The notes beneath the pieces are model-generated. The model was not told the DNA's origin and did no database searches. It saw only the letters and a program-made list of their open reading frames with translations. 23,373 bases of DNA from a virus (taxonomy: Duplodnaviria > Heunggongvirae > Uroviricota > Caudoviricetes), in the IMG/VR virus record IMGVR_UViG_2663763232_000005, one strand, 5' to 3'. The stretch's first letter is position 1. Every line of letters begins with the position of its first letter. A program made the translations under genes and the position numbers. This document shows positions 19,364-23,373 of the stretch, in pieces.

Positions 19364-19699
19364 TTACTCCTTCGAGCTACCAAATTTGTTACCGATTACT
19401 CGCATTGCAGCCCCACGAATAGCATCGACACCGATCAGCCCCACGCCACCACCAATGGCAACAGAAAGCGATTTAGGCCATCCGACATATTCAAGAGCGG
19501 ATGCAAAGGTCAGCGTCAGAGCGCCACATAGCAAAATCTCGAGCGTTTTTCGCTTCCAGCCACCACCACCGCCAAAATAGGCGATGCGCAAACCAGCCAT
19601 AACGATCGACATAATCACTGCACCCAGCGGTGTGTCTCCACGCCACCAGCTCTGAAACAACTCCAGCCAGTCCGGCCAGGTATTTGGGTTATGAGGCAT
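19364..19699 (-). CDS. Holin (class I-like, three predicted TM helices)
   Basis: Start proposed at ATG 19699 with GAGGTG about 15 nt upstream, rather than the track start at 19795, which would overlap the methyltransferase. About 111 aa with three hydrophobic segments, immediately upstream of the endolysin. Confidence 0.6.
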   Translation of the reverse strand: MPHNPNTWPDWLELFQSWWRGDTPLGAVIMSIVMAGLRIAYFGGGGGWKRKTLEILLCGALTLTFASALEYVGWPKSLSVAIGGGVGLIGVDAIRGAAMRVIGNKFGSSKE

Positions 19700-19742
19700 T
19701 TCGTCATCTCTCACCTCGCGATATTTGCGGGTGCTGTGTTGG

Positions 19743-19768
19743 AAATAAAAAGGCCACGCAACGTGGCC
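19743..19768 (-). terminator. Intrinsic terminator between the methyltransferase and holin genes
   Basis: On the minus strand GGCCACG-TTG-CGTGGCC (7-bp stem) is followed by TTTTTATTTCC, starting 8 nt after the methyltransferase stop. Confidence 0.6.
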
Positions 19769-19775
19769 ACCAGAA

Positions 19776-20828
19776 TTATTTCCCCACCAGTTCACTTACC
19801 TCTTTCACCGTCTGATTAAACCGCTCTGACTCAAGTTCAACACCTAACGCCCGACGCCCCAGCGCCATTGCTGCTTTTATTGTGGAACCGGATCCCATAA
19901 AGAAATCAGCAACCAGATCACCAGGTCGACTACTGGCATTGATTATTTGCCGGAGCATATCCGCCGGTTTCTCGCACGGATGTTTACCCGGGTAGAACTG
20001 AACGGGCTTATGCGTCCAGACATCGGTATAAGGCACGGAGACTGATACGGAGAAATAGCGCCGGAGAGATTTAAACTCATCCAGCAATTCAGAATATTTG
20101 CGATTCAGTGAATCATAAGATGCCACCAGCTGGTGGTGTGGTTGTTCCAGTTGTTGTTCCTGAAACTTCTCTGCCGCTATACGGGAAAACAGTGCCTGTA
20201 ACTTCCGATAGTCAGCCTCATTCGGCAACTGCCACTGACTGGCACCAAACCAGTGGGAAACCATATTTTTCTTACCTGTGGCTTCGGCAATTTGTTTTGC
20301 CGTTATACCCAGTTCGGCACGAGCATCCCTGAAATACGATATCAGCGGTGCCATTATGTGCTGTTTGAGTTCCCTTTCTTTTGCCGCATAGCCGTCACTT
20401 TTGCCGCGATATGGCCCCTGGTAATGTTCAGCAAACAGAACGCGCTCTGTAGCGGGGAAATATGCCCGCAGGCTTTCTTTATTACACCCGTTCCATCGTC
20501 CGGACGGCTTCGCCCAGATGATATGGTTAAGCACGTTGAAACGTTCACGCATCATGATCTCGATATCAGATGCGAGGCGATGTCCACAGAACAGGTAAAG
20601 GCTTCCGGCTGGTTTCAGTACCCGCCAGAACTGGGCCAGACAGTAGTCCAGCCACTTCAGGTAATCTTCGTCCCCTTTCCACTGATTGTCCCAGCCGTTG
20701 GGCTTCACTTTGAAGTACGGCGGATCGGTAACAATCAGATCAATGGAATCATCAGGCAAGGACTGAATAAAATGCAGGCAATCAGCGTTGATTAAATCAA
20801 CACTGTTTATTTTTACAGTATTTTTCAT
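19776..20828 (-). CDS. DNA methyltransferase, beta-class N6-adenine/N4-cytosine (orphan, no endonuclease partner in window)
   Basis: 350-aa ORF with motif IV DPPY near the N-terminus (IDLIVTDPPYF) and motif I FxGxG near the C-terminus (VADFFMGSGST), the order diagnostic of beta-class amino-methyltransferases. No Shine-Dalgarno is visible before the ATG. Confidence 0.85.
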   Translation of the reverse strand: MKNTVKINSVDLINADCLHFIQSLPDDSIDLIVTDPPYFKVKPNGWDNQWKGDEDYLKWLDYCLAQFWRVLKPAGSLYLFCGHRLASDIEIMMRERFNVLNHIIWAKPSGRWNGCNKESLRAYFPATERVLFAEHYQGPYRGKSDGYAAKERELKQHIMAPLISYFRDARAELGITAKQIAEATGKKNMVSHWFGASQWQLPNEADYRKLQALFSRIAAEKFQEQQLEQPHHQLVASYDSLNRKYSELLDEFKSLRRYFSVSVSVPYTDVWTHKPVQFYPGKHPCEKPADMLRQIINASSRPGDLVADFFMGSGSTIKAAMALGRRALGVELESERFNQTVKEVSELVGK

Positions 20829-20978
20829 GGATCAGTAAGCGTAACTCTGGTAGGCTCACTCTGCTTTTGCGCTAAAGCAGTGGGCCGTGGTTCGCTTGTG
20901 ACCAGTAAGCATGAGCGAATGGCTGGCAGGTGCTACCAACACCCACCAGCCGCCCATTTTCACAGCAGGAAACCGCCA

Positions 20979-21206
20979 TTACTGGCAGCGTCTGAATTTA
21001 TTCCCGTACCCGCCGTTATCCTTCGCCAGACCCGCCAGAACTAACTGAGTCAGTATTAACTGGCACCGGGCTTCGCTTACTCCGGTAGTTCTCGTCATCA
21101 TGCGTGGCGTTACCCACTTGTCAGCAGGTAAGAAATGAAGGACTGCGGCGGCGGTTTCTGTCATATCTTGCTGTTTTAGCATGTCTTTTTCCCTTCTGGT
21201 TAACAT
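20979..21206 (-). CDS. Small hypothetical protein, possibly winged-helix DNA-binding
   Basis: 75-aa ORF; an internal start at 21182 (M9) is preceded by GAAGGGA. The segment VTPRMMTRTTGVSEARCQLILTQLVLAGLA looks like a helix-turn-helix. Lies between the tR'-like terminator and the methyltransferase. Confidence 0.4.
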   Translation of the reverse strand: MLTRREKDMLKQQDMTETAAAVLHFLPADKWVTPRMMTRTTGVSEARCQLILTQLVLAGLAKDNGGYGNKFRRCQ

Positions 21207-21300
21207 GACATACCAATAACTCTTGTCTAAAAAGCCAGCAAGATAAAAAGTCAGTATTCACGACCACCAGCGTGTTTACTGTACTGCACCAGGTTTACAG

Positions 21301-21330
21301 GTACAAAAAAACCGCTCGACGGCGGGTTTA
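21301..21330 (-). terminator. Candidate late-operon terminator (tR'-like), weak
   Basis: On the minus strand a short GC stem (CCGC-CGTCGA-GCGG) is followed by seven T. The stem is only 4 bp, so strength is uncertain. Confidence 0.3.
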
Positions 21331-21482
21331 AGCTGTGTGGCGAAGTAACCACTCTTAACACAGTAAACGAGAAAATGCGGACCGCGTAAGTTTTTTTTGA
21401 TAGATTATGCATATGCAACGAACCCAGGATCATTAACAAATCACAACCCATTGATTCAAAAGGATAATAAAGGGTAATTTTA

Positions 21483-22415
21483 ATGACTACTACAGCCACT
21501 TCCGCGCCACTAACTAAACAAAAAAAAATGCGTATCGGTTTCTTCCAAAGCTCCTCAGGAACGAAGTCAACTACATCAAATGCACAACTTGCATTTGACA
21601 ACATGTATACAACCATTGTTACACCTTCGCAAAATTCTTATACCGCTGAGTTTGATAAGAAAAAATTAAAGATTGTATTCTTAGAAAAAGACGCACAGGC
21701 GGAGTTCTATTTTGGTTATCTATCATGCTCTCGTGATGGTTTCCACTTACCTTATATTGGTGATGAAAATTGGGATGAGCACAATATTCCGTTAGATGAT
21801 AAAAAATATATAGTCGAACGCACTTATTTTATTTACTACTATAAGAAAGACATTCTTGTTTTATCTCAAAATCATTTAGGACCTAAAGTTTCCGATTTAG
21901 CATTTCTTTTATTCAATTTTTCTGAAGAAAACAAACCTGTAGCGTTTGAGGCAATTTGGAAAAAAGAAAGTGTAAAAGAACTACTTGAAACAGGAAGCAC
22001 TTTACGTAGCTGTGAAATTACACTCGCCGCTCCACGTAATTTTAGCGCAACGGATTATGACCTTTCGAATTCATTTTCCAAAAGTATGATTGAAATGATG
22101 GCTGGGATGGGCGGTTCGCATTTAAAACTATCACTTAGAGGTAGAGCATCGCAACGTAAATTAATCCGTGGTTATCTCAGTGATGAAGTAAAAAGTGGAA
22201 TAAAGGAATTAATAGAAAAAGTTCCTCACTTATTACGTAAAGCTAATGTCACTGAACCTAAAAATACTCATTCAAGGAGTCTTCTCAATCAAGTTCTGAT
22301 CAGTGAAAAAAACATTAACACAAAAGATGGCTACGCAAAAGAAACAGATGTGCGTACTGCCTTGATCAGTGCTAAAATTGAACATGGTCAGTATTTAAAG
22401 CAATATGAAATCTGA
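21483..22415 (+). CDS. Hypothetical soluble protein, first gene of an AT-rich two-gene cargo cassette (candidate defence/exclusion sensor)
   Basis: 310-aa ORF on the strand opposite to all phage late genes; AT-rich and Lys/Asn/Ile-rich. AAGGG lies 8 nt before the ATG. No motif I recognise; SSSGTKST is not a canonical Walker A. Confidence 0.6.
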   Translation: MTTTATSAPLTKQKKMRIGFFQSSSGTKSTTSNAQLAFDNMYTTIVTPSQNSYTAEFDKKKLKIVFLEKDAQAEFYFGYLSCSRDGFHLPYIGDENWDEHNIPLDDKKYIVERTYFIYYYKKDILVLSQNHLGPKVSDLAFLLFNFSEENKPVAFEAIWKKESVKELLETGSTLRSCEITLAAPRNFSATDYDLSNSFSKSMIEMMAGMGGSHLKLSLRGRASQRKLIRGYLSDEVKSGIKELIEKVPHLLRKANVTEPKNTHSRSLLNQVLISEKNINTKDGYAKETDVRTALISAKIEHGQYLKQYEI

Positions 22416-22429
22416 TCTTATTTTTAAGG

Positions 22430-22882
22430 ATGATGATTATGCTTATTAAAGTTTTAATTAACATAGTTATCAGTGGGCTGTTAGCTTGGGTGCTTGGGAA
22501 ATACCTAGCGCCTATGGCTCACTCTGATATCTTAAGTACAGCCGGAGTGTTATCTACGGTGGCAGGCATTTTGTTTGGTTTTGTATTGGCCGCTATTTCC
22601 ATCTTCAGTTCTGCAAGTTCAAGTACTGATGGAATTATTTTTGCTTTAAAACAAAACAAGATTTTACCTAAAATTATTCATAACCTGTTATCTACGGGAG
22701 TTACCTTAATATTAGCATGTATTTTCCCGCTGATAGCAATGTTTATAAATGAAAAAATCACCATTACCTCTGTAAGACTTGATTTCGCCCTAACCTTATA
22801 TGGTTTCTCGACCCTGATCGTATCAATAGTTTCATTTGCAAGTACCTGGAGAAAAATAAACTGGATATTACCCCACATATAA
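22430..22882 (+). CDS. Hypothetical integral membrane protein with four predicted TM helices, second gene of the cassette (candidate effector)
   Basis: 150-aa ORF starting 14 nt after the upstream stop. AAGGA precedes the start; the ATG at 22439 has the best spacing. Four hydrophobic segments at roughly residues 5-27, 38-62, 78-106 and 118-140. Confidence 0.6.
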   Translation: MMIMLIKVLINIVISGLLAWVLGKYLAPMAHSDILSTAGVLSTVAGILFGFVLAAISIFSSASSSTDGIIFALKQNKILPKIIHNLLSTGVTLILACIFPLIAMFINEKITITSVRLDFALTLYGFSTLIVSIVSFASTWRKINWILPHI

Positions 22883-22925: not shown

Positions 22926-23288
22926 TTAATCCATATCTAAGCTAACATTTAGAATAGCTAGACAACCTTCTATAAATCCCTCAGCCATCTGTATCTCAAT
23001 GCGTATTATTTTCTCATCCTTTTTGCGAGCTTTAGCGAGCTTTCTTTTAGAGATACCGTATAGGTAATGGGCAACAAGAAGCGAGTGTTCTTCAGGTCTT
23101 TTTTGCTTTAGACGAGCAAGACAACCTTCAATAATTAATGCATCACTATCTGAACAAGCCTGACGTGTTTTGCTTGTATAGGGAAGAAGCCCTTTAAACC
23201 CAGCAGCTATAGGCGAATAGTCTACCCCAGAACTATCACTCGCCGCCCATGCACCCCAACGATCCAGAACCATCTGAATATCACGCAT
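22926..23288 (-). CDS. Late-gene antiterminator Q (phage 82 / QuuD-like family)
   Basis: Track ORF runs to 23366, but the ATG at 23288 is preceded by GGAG 7 nt upstream and gives MRDIQMVLDRWGAWAASDSSGVDYSPIAAGFKGLLP..., which resembles the QuuD-type Q N-terminus as I recall it. Confidence 0.65.
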   Translation of the reverse strand: MRDIQMVLDRWGAWAASDSSGVDYSPIAAGFKGLLPYTSKTRQACSDSDALIIEGCLARLKQKRPEEHSLLVAHYLYGISKRKLAKARKKDEKIIRIEIQMAEGFIEGCLAILNVSLDMD

Positions 23289-23373
23289 CAACTTTCTCCA
23301 CAAAATCAGGCCAGCATGACCTGCTCCCCGTTGATTAGTACACCCCGATGTTAGTAATGTCTTCATAAGCCAC

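What the first reader, a model, noticed from the sequence alone, without database searches (positions are those of the whole stretch)
19743..21206. Orphan DNA methyltransferase, terminator-bracketed, with no Shine-Dalgarno and preceded by a small HTH-like ORF
A beta-class amino-methyltransferase sits between the candidate tR' and the holin, followed 8 nt later by an intrinsic terminator, with no restriction endonuclease partner in the window. Its ATG has no recognisable Shine-Dalgarno, while the small HTH-like ORF upstream has a good one. This suggests a regulated anti-restriction or epigenetic module that could be expressed independently of, or only read through during, late transcription.
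Basis: partly seen in the sequence, partly recalled or inferred. Interest (0 to 1): 0.45.

Follow-up and report, generated by a model that had tools for sequence, protein, structure and literature searches.

The report
Promiscuous prophage adenine methylase with structured leader
This is a well-known kind of prophage gene, a close relative of M.EcoGII (an enzyme that methylates any adenine and is thought to shield phage DNA from restriction), and its missing ribosome-binding site turns out to lie behind a conserved folded RNA leader that has apparently not been described.

Summary
A 350-aa beta-class N6/N4 DNA methyltransferase (19776-20828, minus strand) lies in the late region of an SfV-like lambdoid prophage. 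Upstream are a terminator and a small winged-helix ORF; an intrinsic terminator follows, then the holin. No restriction enzyme is present. The start codon has no Shine-Dalgarno sequence.

The enzyme is not mysterious. It is about 81% identical over its full length to M.EcoGII, the characterised non-specific adenine methyltransferase, which is silent in lysogens and toxic when expressed constitutively. The same module occurs in SfV, cdtI, mEp460, phiP27 and Stx2c phages, and in 3167 of 5426 complete E. coli genomes.

The likely mechanism is inferred, not shown. The gene is silent in the lysogen, is read through by Q-antiterminated late transcription, and methylates progeny DNA broadly against restriction.

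One thing appears new. The 140 nt before the ATG form a conserved structured RNA: a three-way junction plus two hairpins. Compensatory changes support it across Enterobacterales. It is always attached to this gene and is absent from Rfam 15. Its role, probably control of translation of a toxic enzyme, is untested. The small ORF is a frequent but dispensable partner of unknown function.

The parts
19776..20828 (-). M.EcoGII-family beta-class N6-adenine DNA methyltransferase gene (350 aa, stop codon included)
   Evidence: PF01555 at E=3.2e-42. 283/349 residues (81%) identical to the M.EcoGII sequence printed in the PMC11551740 supplement. 99% identical to SfV orf48. PADLOC MTase_II at 3.6e-152.
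19742..19768 (-). Intrinsic terminator t3 after the methyltransferase (7-bp GC-rich stem, UUG loop, U5AU3 tract)
   Evidence: -12.5 kcal/mol. Annotated as a terminator in the SfV and Ayreon records. A terminator within about 10 nt of the stop, with differing sequences, is present in 36 of 81 homologous loci.
20829..20968 (-). Conserved structured leader RNA. P1 20952-20956/20881-20885; H1 20940-20951/20921-20932; H2 20910-20919/20891-20900; H3 20874-20880/20861-20867; H4 20854-20860/20834-20840. An unpaired, AU-rich, SD-less start region follows.
   Evidence: Structure counted on a MAFFT alignment of 39 sequences: 87% of cells paired against 31-43% when slid, 18 of 40 pairs changed on both sides, 0 of 500 shuffles as high. 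Covariance model R1 finds exactly one hit per locus, always abutting the methyltransferase ATG, at E 1e-24 to 1e-50 in 55 loci. Model-fitted alignment: 89.5% paired, 21 of 40 pairs compensatory. Folding z=-4.4. No Rfam 15 match. From the leader side, 111 of 116 matches to the leader core in viral contigs are followed by the methyltransferase ORF 129-132 nt downstream.
20972..20989 (-). Hairpin t2 overlapping the small ORF's stop codon. It has a GUAA loop and a weak U-tract in this copy; many relatives have a full terminator with a T-run here.
   Evidence: -11.9 kcal/mol. Searches show a hairpin followed by a T-run immediately 5' of the leader in SfV, phiP27, P840, L017, L021, L026 and L033.
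20979..21182 (-). Small winged-helix ORF (67 aa; homologue of SfV orf47; phrog_331; NCBI names a diverged clade 'TrmB family transcriptional regulator'). SD AGAAGGGA at about 21191-21198.
   Evidence: AlphaFold2 pLDDT 87 with H-H-H-E-E topology. Foldseek best whole-length matches are Zalpha (TM 0.82), the SelB mRNA-binding domain, TrmBL2 and IclR winged helices, all at E about 0.01. Sub-threshold Pfam hits to TrmB, DprA_WH and MarR_2.
21305..21326 (-). The hairpin is weak in this copy and is followed by a U7 tract.
   Evidence: Annotated as a terminator at the same place in SfV and Ayreon. A 60-nt homologous segment is present in 359 phage records.
21352..21392 (-). Putative late promoter PR' and initial transcribed region. 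Placed by positional homology only.
   Evidence: In alignment A4 this segment matches the DNA directly 3' of the Q gene in PhiR5_1 and the Stx1 phage. In Stx phages PR' lies immediately downstream of Q (PMC7547250). Not mapped here.
19364..19699 (-). Lambda-family holin, first gene of the lysis cassette downstream of the module
   Evidence: PF05106 at E=2.8e-27. PGAP annotation of near-identical prophages.
22926..23366 (-). Antiterminator Q gene (the PGAP start gives 22926-23291)
   Evidence: PF06530 at E=6.2e-52.

Best explanation
The gene encodes an M.EcoGII-type sequence-non-specific N6-adenine methyltransferase. It is carried as a portable cassette in the Q-dependent late operon of an SfV-like lambdoid prophage.

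The cassette, in order, is: terminator t1, winged-helix ORF, hairpin t2, structured leader, methyltransferase, terminator t3.

In the lysogen the enzyme is not made. I found no promoter of its own. Late-promoter transcripts stop at the promoter-proximal terminators, t2 adds a further block, and the ORF has no Shine-Dalgarno sequence.

After induction, Q-modified RNA polymerase reads through t1, t2 and t3 into the lysis and structural genes. The enzyme is therefore made late, when phage DNA is being replicated and packaged. It methylates adenines in many contexts, so progeny DNA is protected from adenine-sensitive restriction systems in the next host.

The conserved 140-nt leader most likely sets or limits translation of this toxic enzyme, by binding a protein (possibly the methyltransferase itself) or a ligand.

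What is shown: family membership, the anatomy, the conservation and linkage of the parts, and the RNA structure by covariation. What is inferred: the timing of expression, the anti-restriction role, and the function of the leader.
For: Identity:
- 81% full-length identity to M.EcoGII, with beta-class motifs.
- M.EcoGII is prophage-borne, silent in the lysogen, toxic when expressed constitutively, and methylates A in any context (PMC5778455).
- Homologues are listed as 'nonspecific' and give no motif in STEC lysogen methylomes (PMC6602927).

Position in the late operon:
- Q lies upstream; holin, endolysin and spanin genes and the head and tail genes lie downstream on the same strand.
- Only about 50 nt separate t3 from the holin ATG, which leaves no room for a late promoter there.

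Portability: the module occurs with different Q genes and different holins in SfV, Ayreon, cdtI, LLS and P840, and in 3167 of 5426 E. coli genomes.

Terminators.

No Shine-Dalgarno sequence across the family.

No promoter-like signal above chance: 9 sites found against 8.9 expected.

Leader structure and exclusive linkage to the methyltransferase.
Against: - No expression or methylation data exist for this prophage or for any close relative during lytic growth. The anti-restriction role is the published hypothesis, not a demonstrated fact.
- t1 is weak in this copy, and PR' was placed by homology only.
- An AT-rich cassette on the opposite strand lies between Q and the putative PR', so the exact transcript architecture is unverified.
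- 19% sequence divergence from M.EcoGII could in principle alter specificity.
- The leader leaves the AUG unpaired in predicted folds, so simple sequestration of the start codon is not supported and the leader's mode of action is open.
- t3 is absent from more than half of the homologous loci.
Confidence: 0.75

Rival explanations
1. The module is an epigenetic or lysogenic-conversion unit. The small ORF and the methyltransferase are expressed in the lysogen from a promoter between t1 and the small ORF, and the enzyme writes a specific methylation motif on the host chromosome.
For: The terminator-bracketed layout resembles a 'moron', a gene inserted in a phage operon with its own promoter and terminator. 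The small ORF has a usable SD. The 130-nt region upstream of it is conserved and holds a short direct repeat.
Against: M.EcoGII and M.EcoGI are silent in lysogens and have no motif (PMC5778455). Homologues give no extra motif in other lysogens (PMC6602927). Constitutive expression is deleterious. Promoter-like sites do not exceed chance. A hairpin or terminator and a 140-nt SD-less leader separate the small ORF from the methyltransferase.
Confidence: 0.05
2. The small winged-helix protein is a dedicated controller of the methyltransferase, analogous to C proteins of restriction-modification systems. It would bind DNA, or the leader RNA, to switch methyltransferase expression.
For: It lies immediately upstream of the methyltransferase in roughly three quarters of 80 genome loci, from Escherichia to Xenorhabdus and Proteus, at 38-100% identity. 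It does so in 99 of 107 viral-contig loci. It has a winged-helix fold, and structural neighbours include the RNA-binding SelB domain and Zalpha.
Against: The methyltransferase with its leader occurs without the ORF in LLS, P840 and about 19 genome loci. The ORF occurs without the methyltransferase in the Stx2k phage and PhiR5_1. The fold is not the Xre-type HTH of C proteins. The invariant third helix, RCQLILTQLVxAGL, is hydrophobic and so an unusual recognition helix. I found no conserved operator. Fold matches are generic, at E about 0.01.
Confidence: 0.15
3. The conserved leader is not a regulator. It is a passive stabilising or processing structure, for example protecting the 5' end after cleavage of the long late transcript. 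Low translation then follows simply from the missing SD.
For: The AUG and the AU-rich start region are unpaired in predicted folds. Relatives that lack the leader or have a reduced one (Photorhabdus, Xenorhabdus, L036, L089) also lack an SD. A test for a covarying alternative long-range helix was weak: cognate -5.6 against non-cognate -5.0 kcal/mol.
Against: A five-helix architecture with near-invariant loops and junctions is maintained by compensatory changes across genera. That is more than simple 5' protection normally needs. The leader is kept even where the upstream gene is replaced.
Confidence: 0.3
4. The physiological substrate is RNA rather than phage DNA, since M.EcoGII methylates RNA in vitro. 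The enzyme would modify host or phage RNAs late in infection.
For: M.EcoGII methylates rA in RNA and in DNA:RNA hybrids (PMC5778455; PMC11551740).
Against: There is no in vivo evidence. Late expression alongside DNA packaging fits DNA protection. This analysis gives nothing that favours RNA.
Confidence: 0.05

Closest known systems
M.EcoGII and M.EcoGI of E. coli O104:H4 C227-11 (non-specific beta-class N6-adenine methyltransferases; Murray et al. 2018, PMC5778455)
   Same: About 81% identical over the full length. Same beta-class DPPY-TRD-FxGxG architecture, same length (350 against 349 aa), prophage-borne and orphan. An allele with the MLNT N-terminus of M.EcoGII (L019, E. albertii) carries the same leader.
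   Different: 19% sequence divergence, and activity was not tested for this allele. The published work does not describe the genomic anatomy reported here: terminators, the winged-helix ORF, the SD-less start and the structured leader.
Phage SfV orf47-orf48 region (U82619; terminators annotated by the depositors)
   Same: The methyltransferase is 99% identical. The same leader, t3, holin and endolysin are present, and a terminator is annotated upstream of orf47 and downstream of orf48.
   Different: SfV has a different Q gene directly adjacent, a different allele of the small ORF (the 'TrmB-like' clade), and no opposite-strand cassette.
Moron cassettes at the late-promoter (PR') insertion site of lambdoid phages (stx in Stx phages, lc porin in PA-2; Juhala et al. 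2000 as cited in PMC4104026)
   Same: It is an accessory cassette between the Q/PR' region and the lysis genes, bounded by terminators. It is exchanged among phages with different flanking genes.
   Different: Classic morons have their own promoter and are expressed in the lysogen. Here I found no promoter above chance, and the homologous enzyme is silent in lysogens.
ErmC methylase translational autoregulation through its own mRNA leader (from my own knowledge; not checked in the library)
   Same: An adenine-N6 methyltransferase able to act on RNA, encoded behind a structured leader. It is offered only as a precedent for a methyltransferase that binds its own leader.
   Different: Unrelated protein family and leader. 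No evidence here that the enzyme binds its leader.
C (controller) proteins of type II restriction-modification systems
   Same: A small DNA-binding-fold protein encoded just upstream of a modification gene.
   Different: C proteins are Xre-type HTH proteins that act on C-box operators and time expression of the restriction enzyme. This protein is a winged helix, there is no restriction enzyme, no operator was found, and the linkage is dispensable.

Membership tests
Beta-class N6/N4 amino-methyltransferases (PF01555) | Catalytic motif IV (DPPY) is N-terminal and the AdoMet motif I (FxGxG) is C-terminal, with the target recognition domain between them | tested here: met
   TDPPYF at aa 34-39 and FFMGSGST at aa 309-316. 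PF01555 matches residues 29-341 over profile positions 1-220 of 221 at E=3.2e-42. PDB relatives include M.RsrI, M1.MboII and CcrM.
M.EcoGII family (non-specific adenine methyltransferases of enterobacterial prophages) | Close full-length sequence similarity to M.EcoGII or M.EcoGI | tested here: met
   283 of 349 residues identical (81%), 91% positives, 2 gaps. The comparison used a machine-read copy of the sequence from the PMC11551740 supplement, which contains a few reading errors.
M.EcoGII family (non-specific adenine methyltransferases of enterobacterial prophages) | Methylates adenine in any sequence context | not testable with these tools
   Biochemical property shown for M.EcoGII only (PMC5778455). 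REBASE-based tables-93% similar homologues 'nonspecific' (PMC6602927).
M.EcoGII family (non-specific adenine methyltransferases of enterobacterial prophages) | Prophage-encoded and not expressed in the lysogen | tested here: inconclusive
   The prophage location is confirmed. Silence is inferred from the terminators, the absence of a promoter above chance and the absence of an SD. No expression data.
Type II restriction-modification system | A cognate restriction endonuclease gene adjacent to the methyltransferase | tested here: not met
   The neighbours are a winged-helix ORF, a holin, a DUF6731 protein and a membrane protein. The only nuclease in the 23-kb window is a terminase-associated HNH. 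PADLOC matches only the methyltransferase.
C-protein-controlled modification gene | An Xre-type HTH controller with C-box operators upstream | tested here: not met
   The fold is a winged helix. The only repeat is a short two-copy direct repeat that is not conserved in PhiR5_1. The two genes separate in nature.
Lambdoid 'moron' cassette | Inserted between operon genes, with its own terminator | tested here: met
   t3 lies 7 nt after the stop codon. The cassette occurs with different Q genes and holins.
Lambdoid 'moron' cassette | Its own promoter, active in the lysogen | tested here: inconclusive
   The consensus scan found 9 sites against 8.9 expected, none suitably placed and conserved. Expression was not measured.
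Any described RNA family (Rfam 15) | The leader matches a curated covariance model | tested here: not met
   No hit over 20829-20968 at E<=1 in a 4-kb scan. Only two chance-level hits on the opposite strand, at E 3-10, in a 211-nt scan. Five 16-17-nt strings from the leader appear in no paper of the library.
Riboswitch or protein-binding cis-regulatory leader | A conserved structure supported by covariation in the 5' UTR of one gene family | tested here: met
Riboswitch or protein-binding cis-regulatory leader | A ligand or protein binds and changes expression | not testable with these tools
   Needs in-line probing or SHAPE, gel-shift assays and reporter fusions.

The most novel reading that the evidence does not exclude
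The 140-nt leader (20829-20968) is a previously undescribed class of cis-regulatory RNA. It would gate translation of a toxic, sequence-non-specific methyltransferase, either through feedback binding by the enzyme (which is known to act on RNA), through the neighbouring winged-helix protein, or through a small-molecule ligand. If so, more than half of sequenced E. coli genomes carry an unannotated regulatory RNA.
Probability: 0.4. Interest if true: 0.65.

Novelty: new member of a known kind. Interest (0 to 1): 0.42.

Why it matters
The methyltransferase itself adds little. It is one more allele of a characterised and commercially used enzyme family that is very common in E. coli prophages.

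The anatomy around it is more useful. The discoverers of M.EcoGII left open how a toxic, indiscriminate enzyme is kept silent and then used. The layered arrangement found here gives a concrete, testable model: three terminators, no Shine-Dalgarno sequence, and a covariation-supported leader RNA.

The leader is also a candidate new RNA family. It is widespread, in Escherichia, Salmonella, Enterobacter, Citrobacter, Proteus, Morganella and Yersinia phage.

It may also matter in practice. Anyone expressing M.EcoGII-type genes from native DNA, or interpreting methylomes and phage host range in STEC and Shigella, should know that the enzyme is late-operon controlled and leaves no motif in the lysogen.

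Tried and rejected
- Known RNA family for the leader: two Rfam 15 scans found nothing. A literature search for leader sequence strings found nothing.
- Leader as coding sequence. The ATG inside it opens reading frames that are not conserved (MGGWWVLV... here, a stop after three codons in L043, a different peptide in P840 and Proteus). One-nucleotide indels in the H1 and H2 loops among close relatives rule out coding on either strand. Conserved G-U pairs place the structure on the methyltransferase sense strand.
- Riboswitch-like alternative conformer. The single-sequence minimum-energy fold pairs AUGGGCG with CGCUCAU, and the 3' arm of H2 with the 3' arm of H4 and the pre-AUG GAUC. A cognate against non-cognate duplex test gave only -5.6 against -5.0 kcal/mol, with support in Morganella but not in P840. 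Left as an open idea, not claimed.
- Kissing interaction between the H1 loop (GUAG) and the H4 loop (CUAY). It was seen by eye, is not kept in L078 or P840, and was not pursued.
- A hidden Shine-Dalgarno sequence brought close by H4 (as in T4 gene 38): no SD-like sequence flanks H4.
- The published prophage sRNAs at this site, AgvB/AsxR, StxS and the Pas sRNAs (PMC4104026, PMC7547250 and the 2026 bioRxiv preprint 10.64898/2026.05.13.724894). They lie downstream of morons or between PR' and tR', and none of these papers mentions the methyltransferase or its leader.
- Exact mapping of PR'. Only a positional homology argument was possible. The homologous terminator in the Stx1 phage lies in the promoter-proximal transcribed region, while the mapped tR' there is further downstream, so calling t1 'the' tR' is provisional.
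- PADLOC and Pfam on the neighbouring opposite-strand genes gave no defence-system assignment.
- The supplement of the M.EcoGII paper, which lists homologues, is not held.
Full report
**1. What is there**

The window is the late region of an SfV-like prophage of E. coli, with an HK97-type head and a Mu-like contractile tail. All late genes are on the minus strand.

Reading along the minus strand, the region holds:
- an antiterminator Q gene, 22926-23366 (PF06530, E=6e-52);
- an AT-rich two-gene cassette on the opposite strand, 21483-22882 (31-37% GC against about 50% nearby);
- a segment homologous to the promoter-proximal late region of related phages, about 21300-21400;
- a T-tract hairpin t1, 21305-21326;
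- a small ORF;
- a hairpin t2 overlapping the small ORF's stop codon, 20972-20989;
- 140 nt of non-coding sequence;
- the methyltransferase ORF, 19776-20828;
- a canonical intrinsic terminator t3, stem 19752-19768 at -12.5 kcal/mol with a U5AU3 tract;
- about 50 nt later, the lambda-type holin, then the endolysin and the Rz/Rz1 genes.

- The terminator starts 7 nt after the stop codon, not 8.
- The small ORF starts at ATG 21182, giving 67 aa. This is the start that carries the SD AGAAGGGA (-5.3 kcal/mol) and that PGAP and the family alignment support. The start at 21206 has no SD.
- The upstream terminator is weak in this copy, at -7.9 kcal/mol and not better than shuffled sequence. Relatives have one more G-C pair.

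No restriction endonuclease is present. A near-identical annotated prophage has only structural and lysis genes and a terminase-associated HNH.

**2. What the methyltransferase is**

The protein matches PF01555 end to end (E=3e-42). DPPY is N-terminal and FxGxG is C-terminal, which is the beta-class order.

It is 283/349 (81%) identical, with two gaps, to M.EcoGII. The M.EcoGII sequence was taken from the supplement of PMC11551740. That copy is machine-read and contains a few errors, so the true identity may be slightly higher.

M.EcoGII is the characterised non-specific adenine methyltransferase of E. coli O104:H4. Four properties are published (PMC5778455):
- It is encoded on a prophage.
- It is not expressed in the lysogen.
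- It slows growth when expressed constitutively.
- It methylates A in any context in DNA, in RNA and in hybrids.

Its discoverers noted 'a very large family' in E. coli prophages and known enterobacterial phages. They proposed that the enzyme is switched on at induction to overcome restriction.

Independent SMRT work on O111 STEC listed M.EcoGI/GII homologues as 'nonspecific' and saw no corresponding motif in lysogens (PMC6602927).

The DNA module is 96-98% identical to phages mEp460, SfV, cdtI and Ayreon. It is 74-89% identical to phiP27 and the Stx2a and Stx2c phages. It is present in 3167 of 5426 complete E. coli genomes, with up to 8 copies per genome.

In protein terms this is a new allele of a known, common family. 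It is 'orphan' by nature, since a non-specific enzyme cannot have a cognate restriction enzyme.

**3. The cassette and its boundaries**

The same unit (t1, small ORF, leader, methyltransferase, t3) is found next to different genes:
- different Q genes: a 250-aa Q in SfV, Ayreon and the Stx2k phage, against PF06530-type Q proteins here and in cdtI and phiP27;
- different downstream genes: a lambda S-type holin here and in SfV, a small class II holin or pinholin in Ayreon, cdtI and LLS, and tRNA genes followed by stx2e in phiP27.

The depositors of SfV and Ayreon already annotated terminators on both sides.

Among 81 homologous loci, 36 have a terminator-like hairpin with a T-tract within about 10 nt of the stop. 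These have several unrelated sequences, which suggests selection for the function rather than inheritance of one sequence. More than half of the loci lack it.

The 60 nt around t1 recur in 359 phage records. In PhiR5_1 and the Stx1 phage the homologous segment directly follows the Q gene. In Stx phages that is where the constitutive late promoter PR' and its early-terminated transcript lie (PMC7547250).

I therefore place PR' at about 21352-21392 by positional homology only. I regard t1 as a promoter-proximal late terminator. Whether it is 'the' tR' is provisional.

Only about 50 nt separate t3 from the holin ATG, so the late promoter cannot lie downstream of the methyltransferase. The gene is inside the late transcription unit.

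A consensus scan found no excess of promoter-like sites: 9 against 8.9 expected.

**4. The small ORF**

It belongs to a family of 61-67-aa proteins confined mostly to Enterobacterales. The family has an invariant N-terminus, MLKQQDMTETA, and an invariant third helix, RCQLILTQLVxAGL.

AlphaFold2 gives a confident model (pLDDT 87) of a minimal winged helix. Foldseek finds only generic winged-helix neighbours at E about 0.01. The best whole-length superposition is Zalpha (TM 0.82, 1.7 A). Others are the SelB mRNA-binding domain, TrmBL2 and IclR-type domains.

Pfam hits are below threshold: TrmB in 19 of 24 members, and DprA_WH and MarR_2 in fewer. NCBI names one clade 'TrmB family transcriptional regulator'.

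Linkage to the methyltransferase:
- It lies immediately upstream in about three quarters of 80 genome loci, from Escherichia to Xenorhabdus and Proteus.
- It does so in 99 of 107 viral-contig loci.
- The methyltransferase with its leader exists without it in LLS, Yersinia phage P840 and about 19 genome loci.
- It exists without the methyltransferase in the Stx2k phage and PhiR5_1.

'HTH-like' is therefore right. 'Regulator of the methyltransferase' is possible but unsupported. The hairpin or terminator at its stop codon suggests that it can be expressed without the methyltransferase.

**5. The missing Shine-Dalgarno sequence and the structured leader**

The absence of an SD is real, at -2.4 kcal/mol. 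It is also a family trait. The median is -2.6 kcal/mol over 77 loci, and only six Xenorhabdus loci reach -4.4 kcal/mol or lower, where my start-codon calls are uncertain.

Comparing upstream regions showed that the roughly 140 nt before the ATG travel with the methyltransferase even where the upstream gene is replaced.

A MAFFT alignment of 39 non-identical leaders, with no structure used in the alignment, supports the following fold:
- a three-way junction made of P1 (5 bp), H1 (12 bp) and H2 (10 bp with an internal mismatch);
- then H3 (6-7 bp) and H4 (7 bp);
- then an unpaired AU-rich start region.

The counts on that alignment are:

| Measure | Observed | Control |
|---|---|---|
| Cells forming a standard pair | 87% | 31-43% when partners are slid by 1-3 columns |
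| Pairs changed on both sides (of 40) | 18 | 7-10 slid; 8.4 shuffled |
| Shuffles reaching the observed values | 0 of 500 | n/a |

Examples of compensatory changes:
- H2: UUCGCU/AGCGAA becomes UUAGCU/AGCUAA, UUUGCU/AGCAAA or CCCGU/ACGG.
- H1: GGCUGGUGGGUG/CACC..CCAGCC becomes GACUGUAAAAGUG/CACCUUUACAGUC in Proteus, and GCUGCGACCACG/CGUGGUCACAGC in P840.
- P1: GGGC/GCCC becomes GAGC/GCUC in L030.

A covariance model built from this alignment (R1) was run over 527 kb of fetched loci:
- It found exactly one hit per locus, always ending at the methyltransferase start. The 55 strong hits had E from 1e-24 to 1e-50.
- Photorhabdus gave weak hits to a reduced form.
- The Stx2k phage gave a weak hit to a truncated remnant.

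On the model-fitted alignment, which leans towards the structure, 89.5% of cells pair and 21 of 40 pairs show compensatory change.

Conserved G-U pairs place the structure on the mRNA sense strand. The window's own sequence folds better than every one of 200 shuffles (z=-4.4).

The reverse test gave the same answer. Of 116 viral-contig matches to a 20-nt leader core, 111 are followed by the methyltransferase ORF 129-132 nt downstream.

Rfam 15 has no match, and five 16-17-nt strings from the leader occur in no paper of the library.

The region does not code for protein. Its reading frames are not conserved, and close relatives differ by one-nucleotide indels in the loops.

In nearly all loci a hairpin sits directly 5' of the leader, and many of these are full terminators with a T-run.

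**6. How it most likely works**

*Shown:*
- family membership;
- position inside the late operon;
- the terminators;
- the absence of an SD;
- the conserved leader structure;
- the linkage statistics.

*Inferred:*
- In the lysogen, late-promoter transcripts stop at t1. Any read-through, or any transcript of the small ORF, stops at t2. What passes is poorly translated.
- After induction, Q-modified polymerase ignores t1, t2 and t3, so the enzyme appears together with the lysis and morphogenesis proteins.
- The enzyme then methylates replicating phage DNA at many adenines, protecting the progeny against adenine-sensitive restriction systems.
- t3 insulates the lysis genes from any Q-independent transcription that enters the cassette.
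- The leader probably tunes translation of a toxic enzyme. Predicted folds leave the AUG free, so simple occlusion is not the mechanism. Binding of a protein or of a ligand are the candidates. The protein could be the methyltransferase itself, which acts on RNA, or the winged-helix protein. A passive stabilising role remains a serious rival.
- A possible alternative conformer was seen in single-sequence folds but has only weak comparative support.

**7. Comparison with what is known, and verdict**

The gene is a member of the M.EcoGII family. Sequence and architecture were tested and met; activity could not be tested.

It is not part of a restriction-modification system, and the small ORF is not a C protein.

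The layout resembles a moron at the classic insertion site after PR' but lacks evidence of its own promoter.

The finding as stated is real but ordinary: a common, already characterised kind of prophage gene in an arrangement annotated since SfV.

The part that appears new is the leader RNA, which explains the odd start-codon context. It is a good candidate for a new cis-regulatory RNA family.

Overall interest is moderate (0.42). If the leader is a true regulator, that reading would deserve about 0.65.

Noticed in passing
window 21483-22882 (+ strand): An AT-rich (31-37% GC) two-gene cassette on the opposite strand lies between the Q gene and the putative late promoter. It encodes a 310-aa DUF6731 protein (phrog_7651) and a 150-aa protein that looks like a multi-pass membrane protein from its sequence (phrog_8552; no topology prediction run). 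It has no PADLOC match. Variant cassettes occupy the same place in phages cdtI and mEp460_4F5. It may be an unrecognised exclusion or defence moron.
   Followed up: partly
window 21352-21392 (- strand): The segment CTTACG-CGGTCCGCA...TTACTG..TAAGAGTGGTTAC aligns with the DNA directly after the Q gene in PhiR5_1, cdtI and the Stx1 phage. The palindrome GCGGTCCGC is conserved among phages with this Q type. It could be the Q-binding element of the late promoter, here separated from Q by 1.4 kb.
   Followed up: partly
window 21375-21397 (+ strand): A terminator-like hairpin with a run of eight T reads on the plus strand, antisense to the late promoter region and upstream of the DUF6731 gene. It recalls the convergent small RNAs reported at this insertion site in EHEC prophages (PMC4104026). 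Not tested.
   Followed up: no
window 21228-21254: A two-copy direct repeat, CTGRCTTTTTA, spaced 16 nt and lying 45-70 nt upstream of the small ORF's start. The first copy is diverged in PhiR5_1, so it may be a chance match.
   Followed up: no
L006 2520-2560 (phage phiSTEC1575-Stx2k): Only the first 50 nt or so of the leader (P1, H1 and the start of H2) remain. They are fused to an unrelated AT-rich gene for a 237-aa 'HTH domain' protein. This marks a recombination junction inside the leader. Four of 116 viral-contig leader cores likewise lack the methyltransferase.
   Followed up: partly
L060, L063, L064, L066-L068, L074, L076, L086, L087 (Xenorhabdus); L010, L052, L084: Several Xenorhabdus homologues read ATG GAA TAG at the usual methyltransferase start, with a GTG a few codons later. 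This is either an alternative start or decay. Three other loci have clearly truncated methyltransferase ORFs.
   Followed up: no
L055-L059, L062 (Photorhabdus) and Xenorhabdus loci: These genera keep the small winged-helix ORF but have a shorter leader of about 100 nt. It retains GUGAAAUGG and an H1-like hairpin and lacks most of H2-H4. The leader and the small ORF therefore evolve independently.
   Followed up: partly
window 20831-20834: A GATC (Dam site) 3-6 nt upstream of the methyltransferase ATG is nearly invariant across the family, and some relatives have a second GATC in the H2 loop. I cannot tell whether this matters at the DNA level or only reflects RNA pairing.
   Followed up: no
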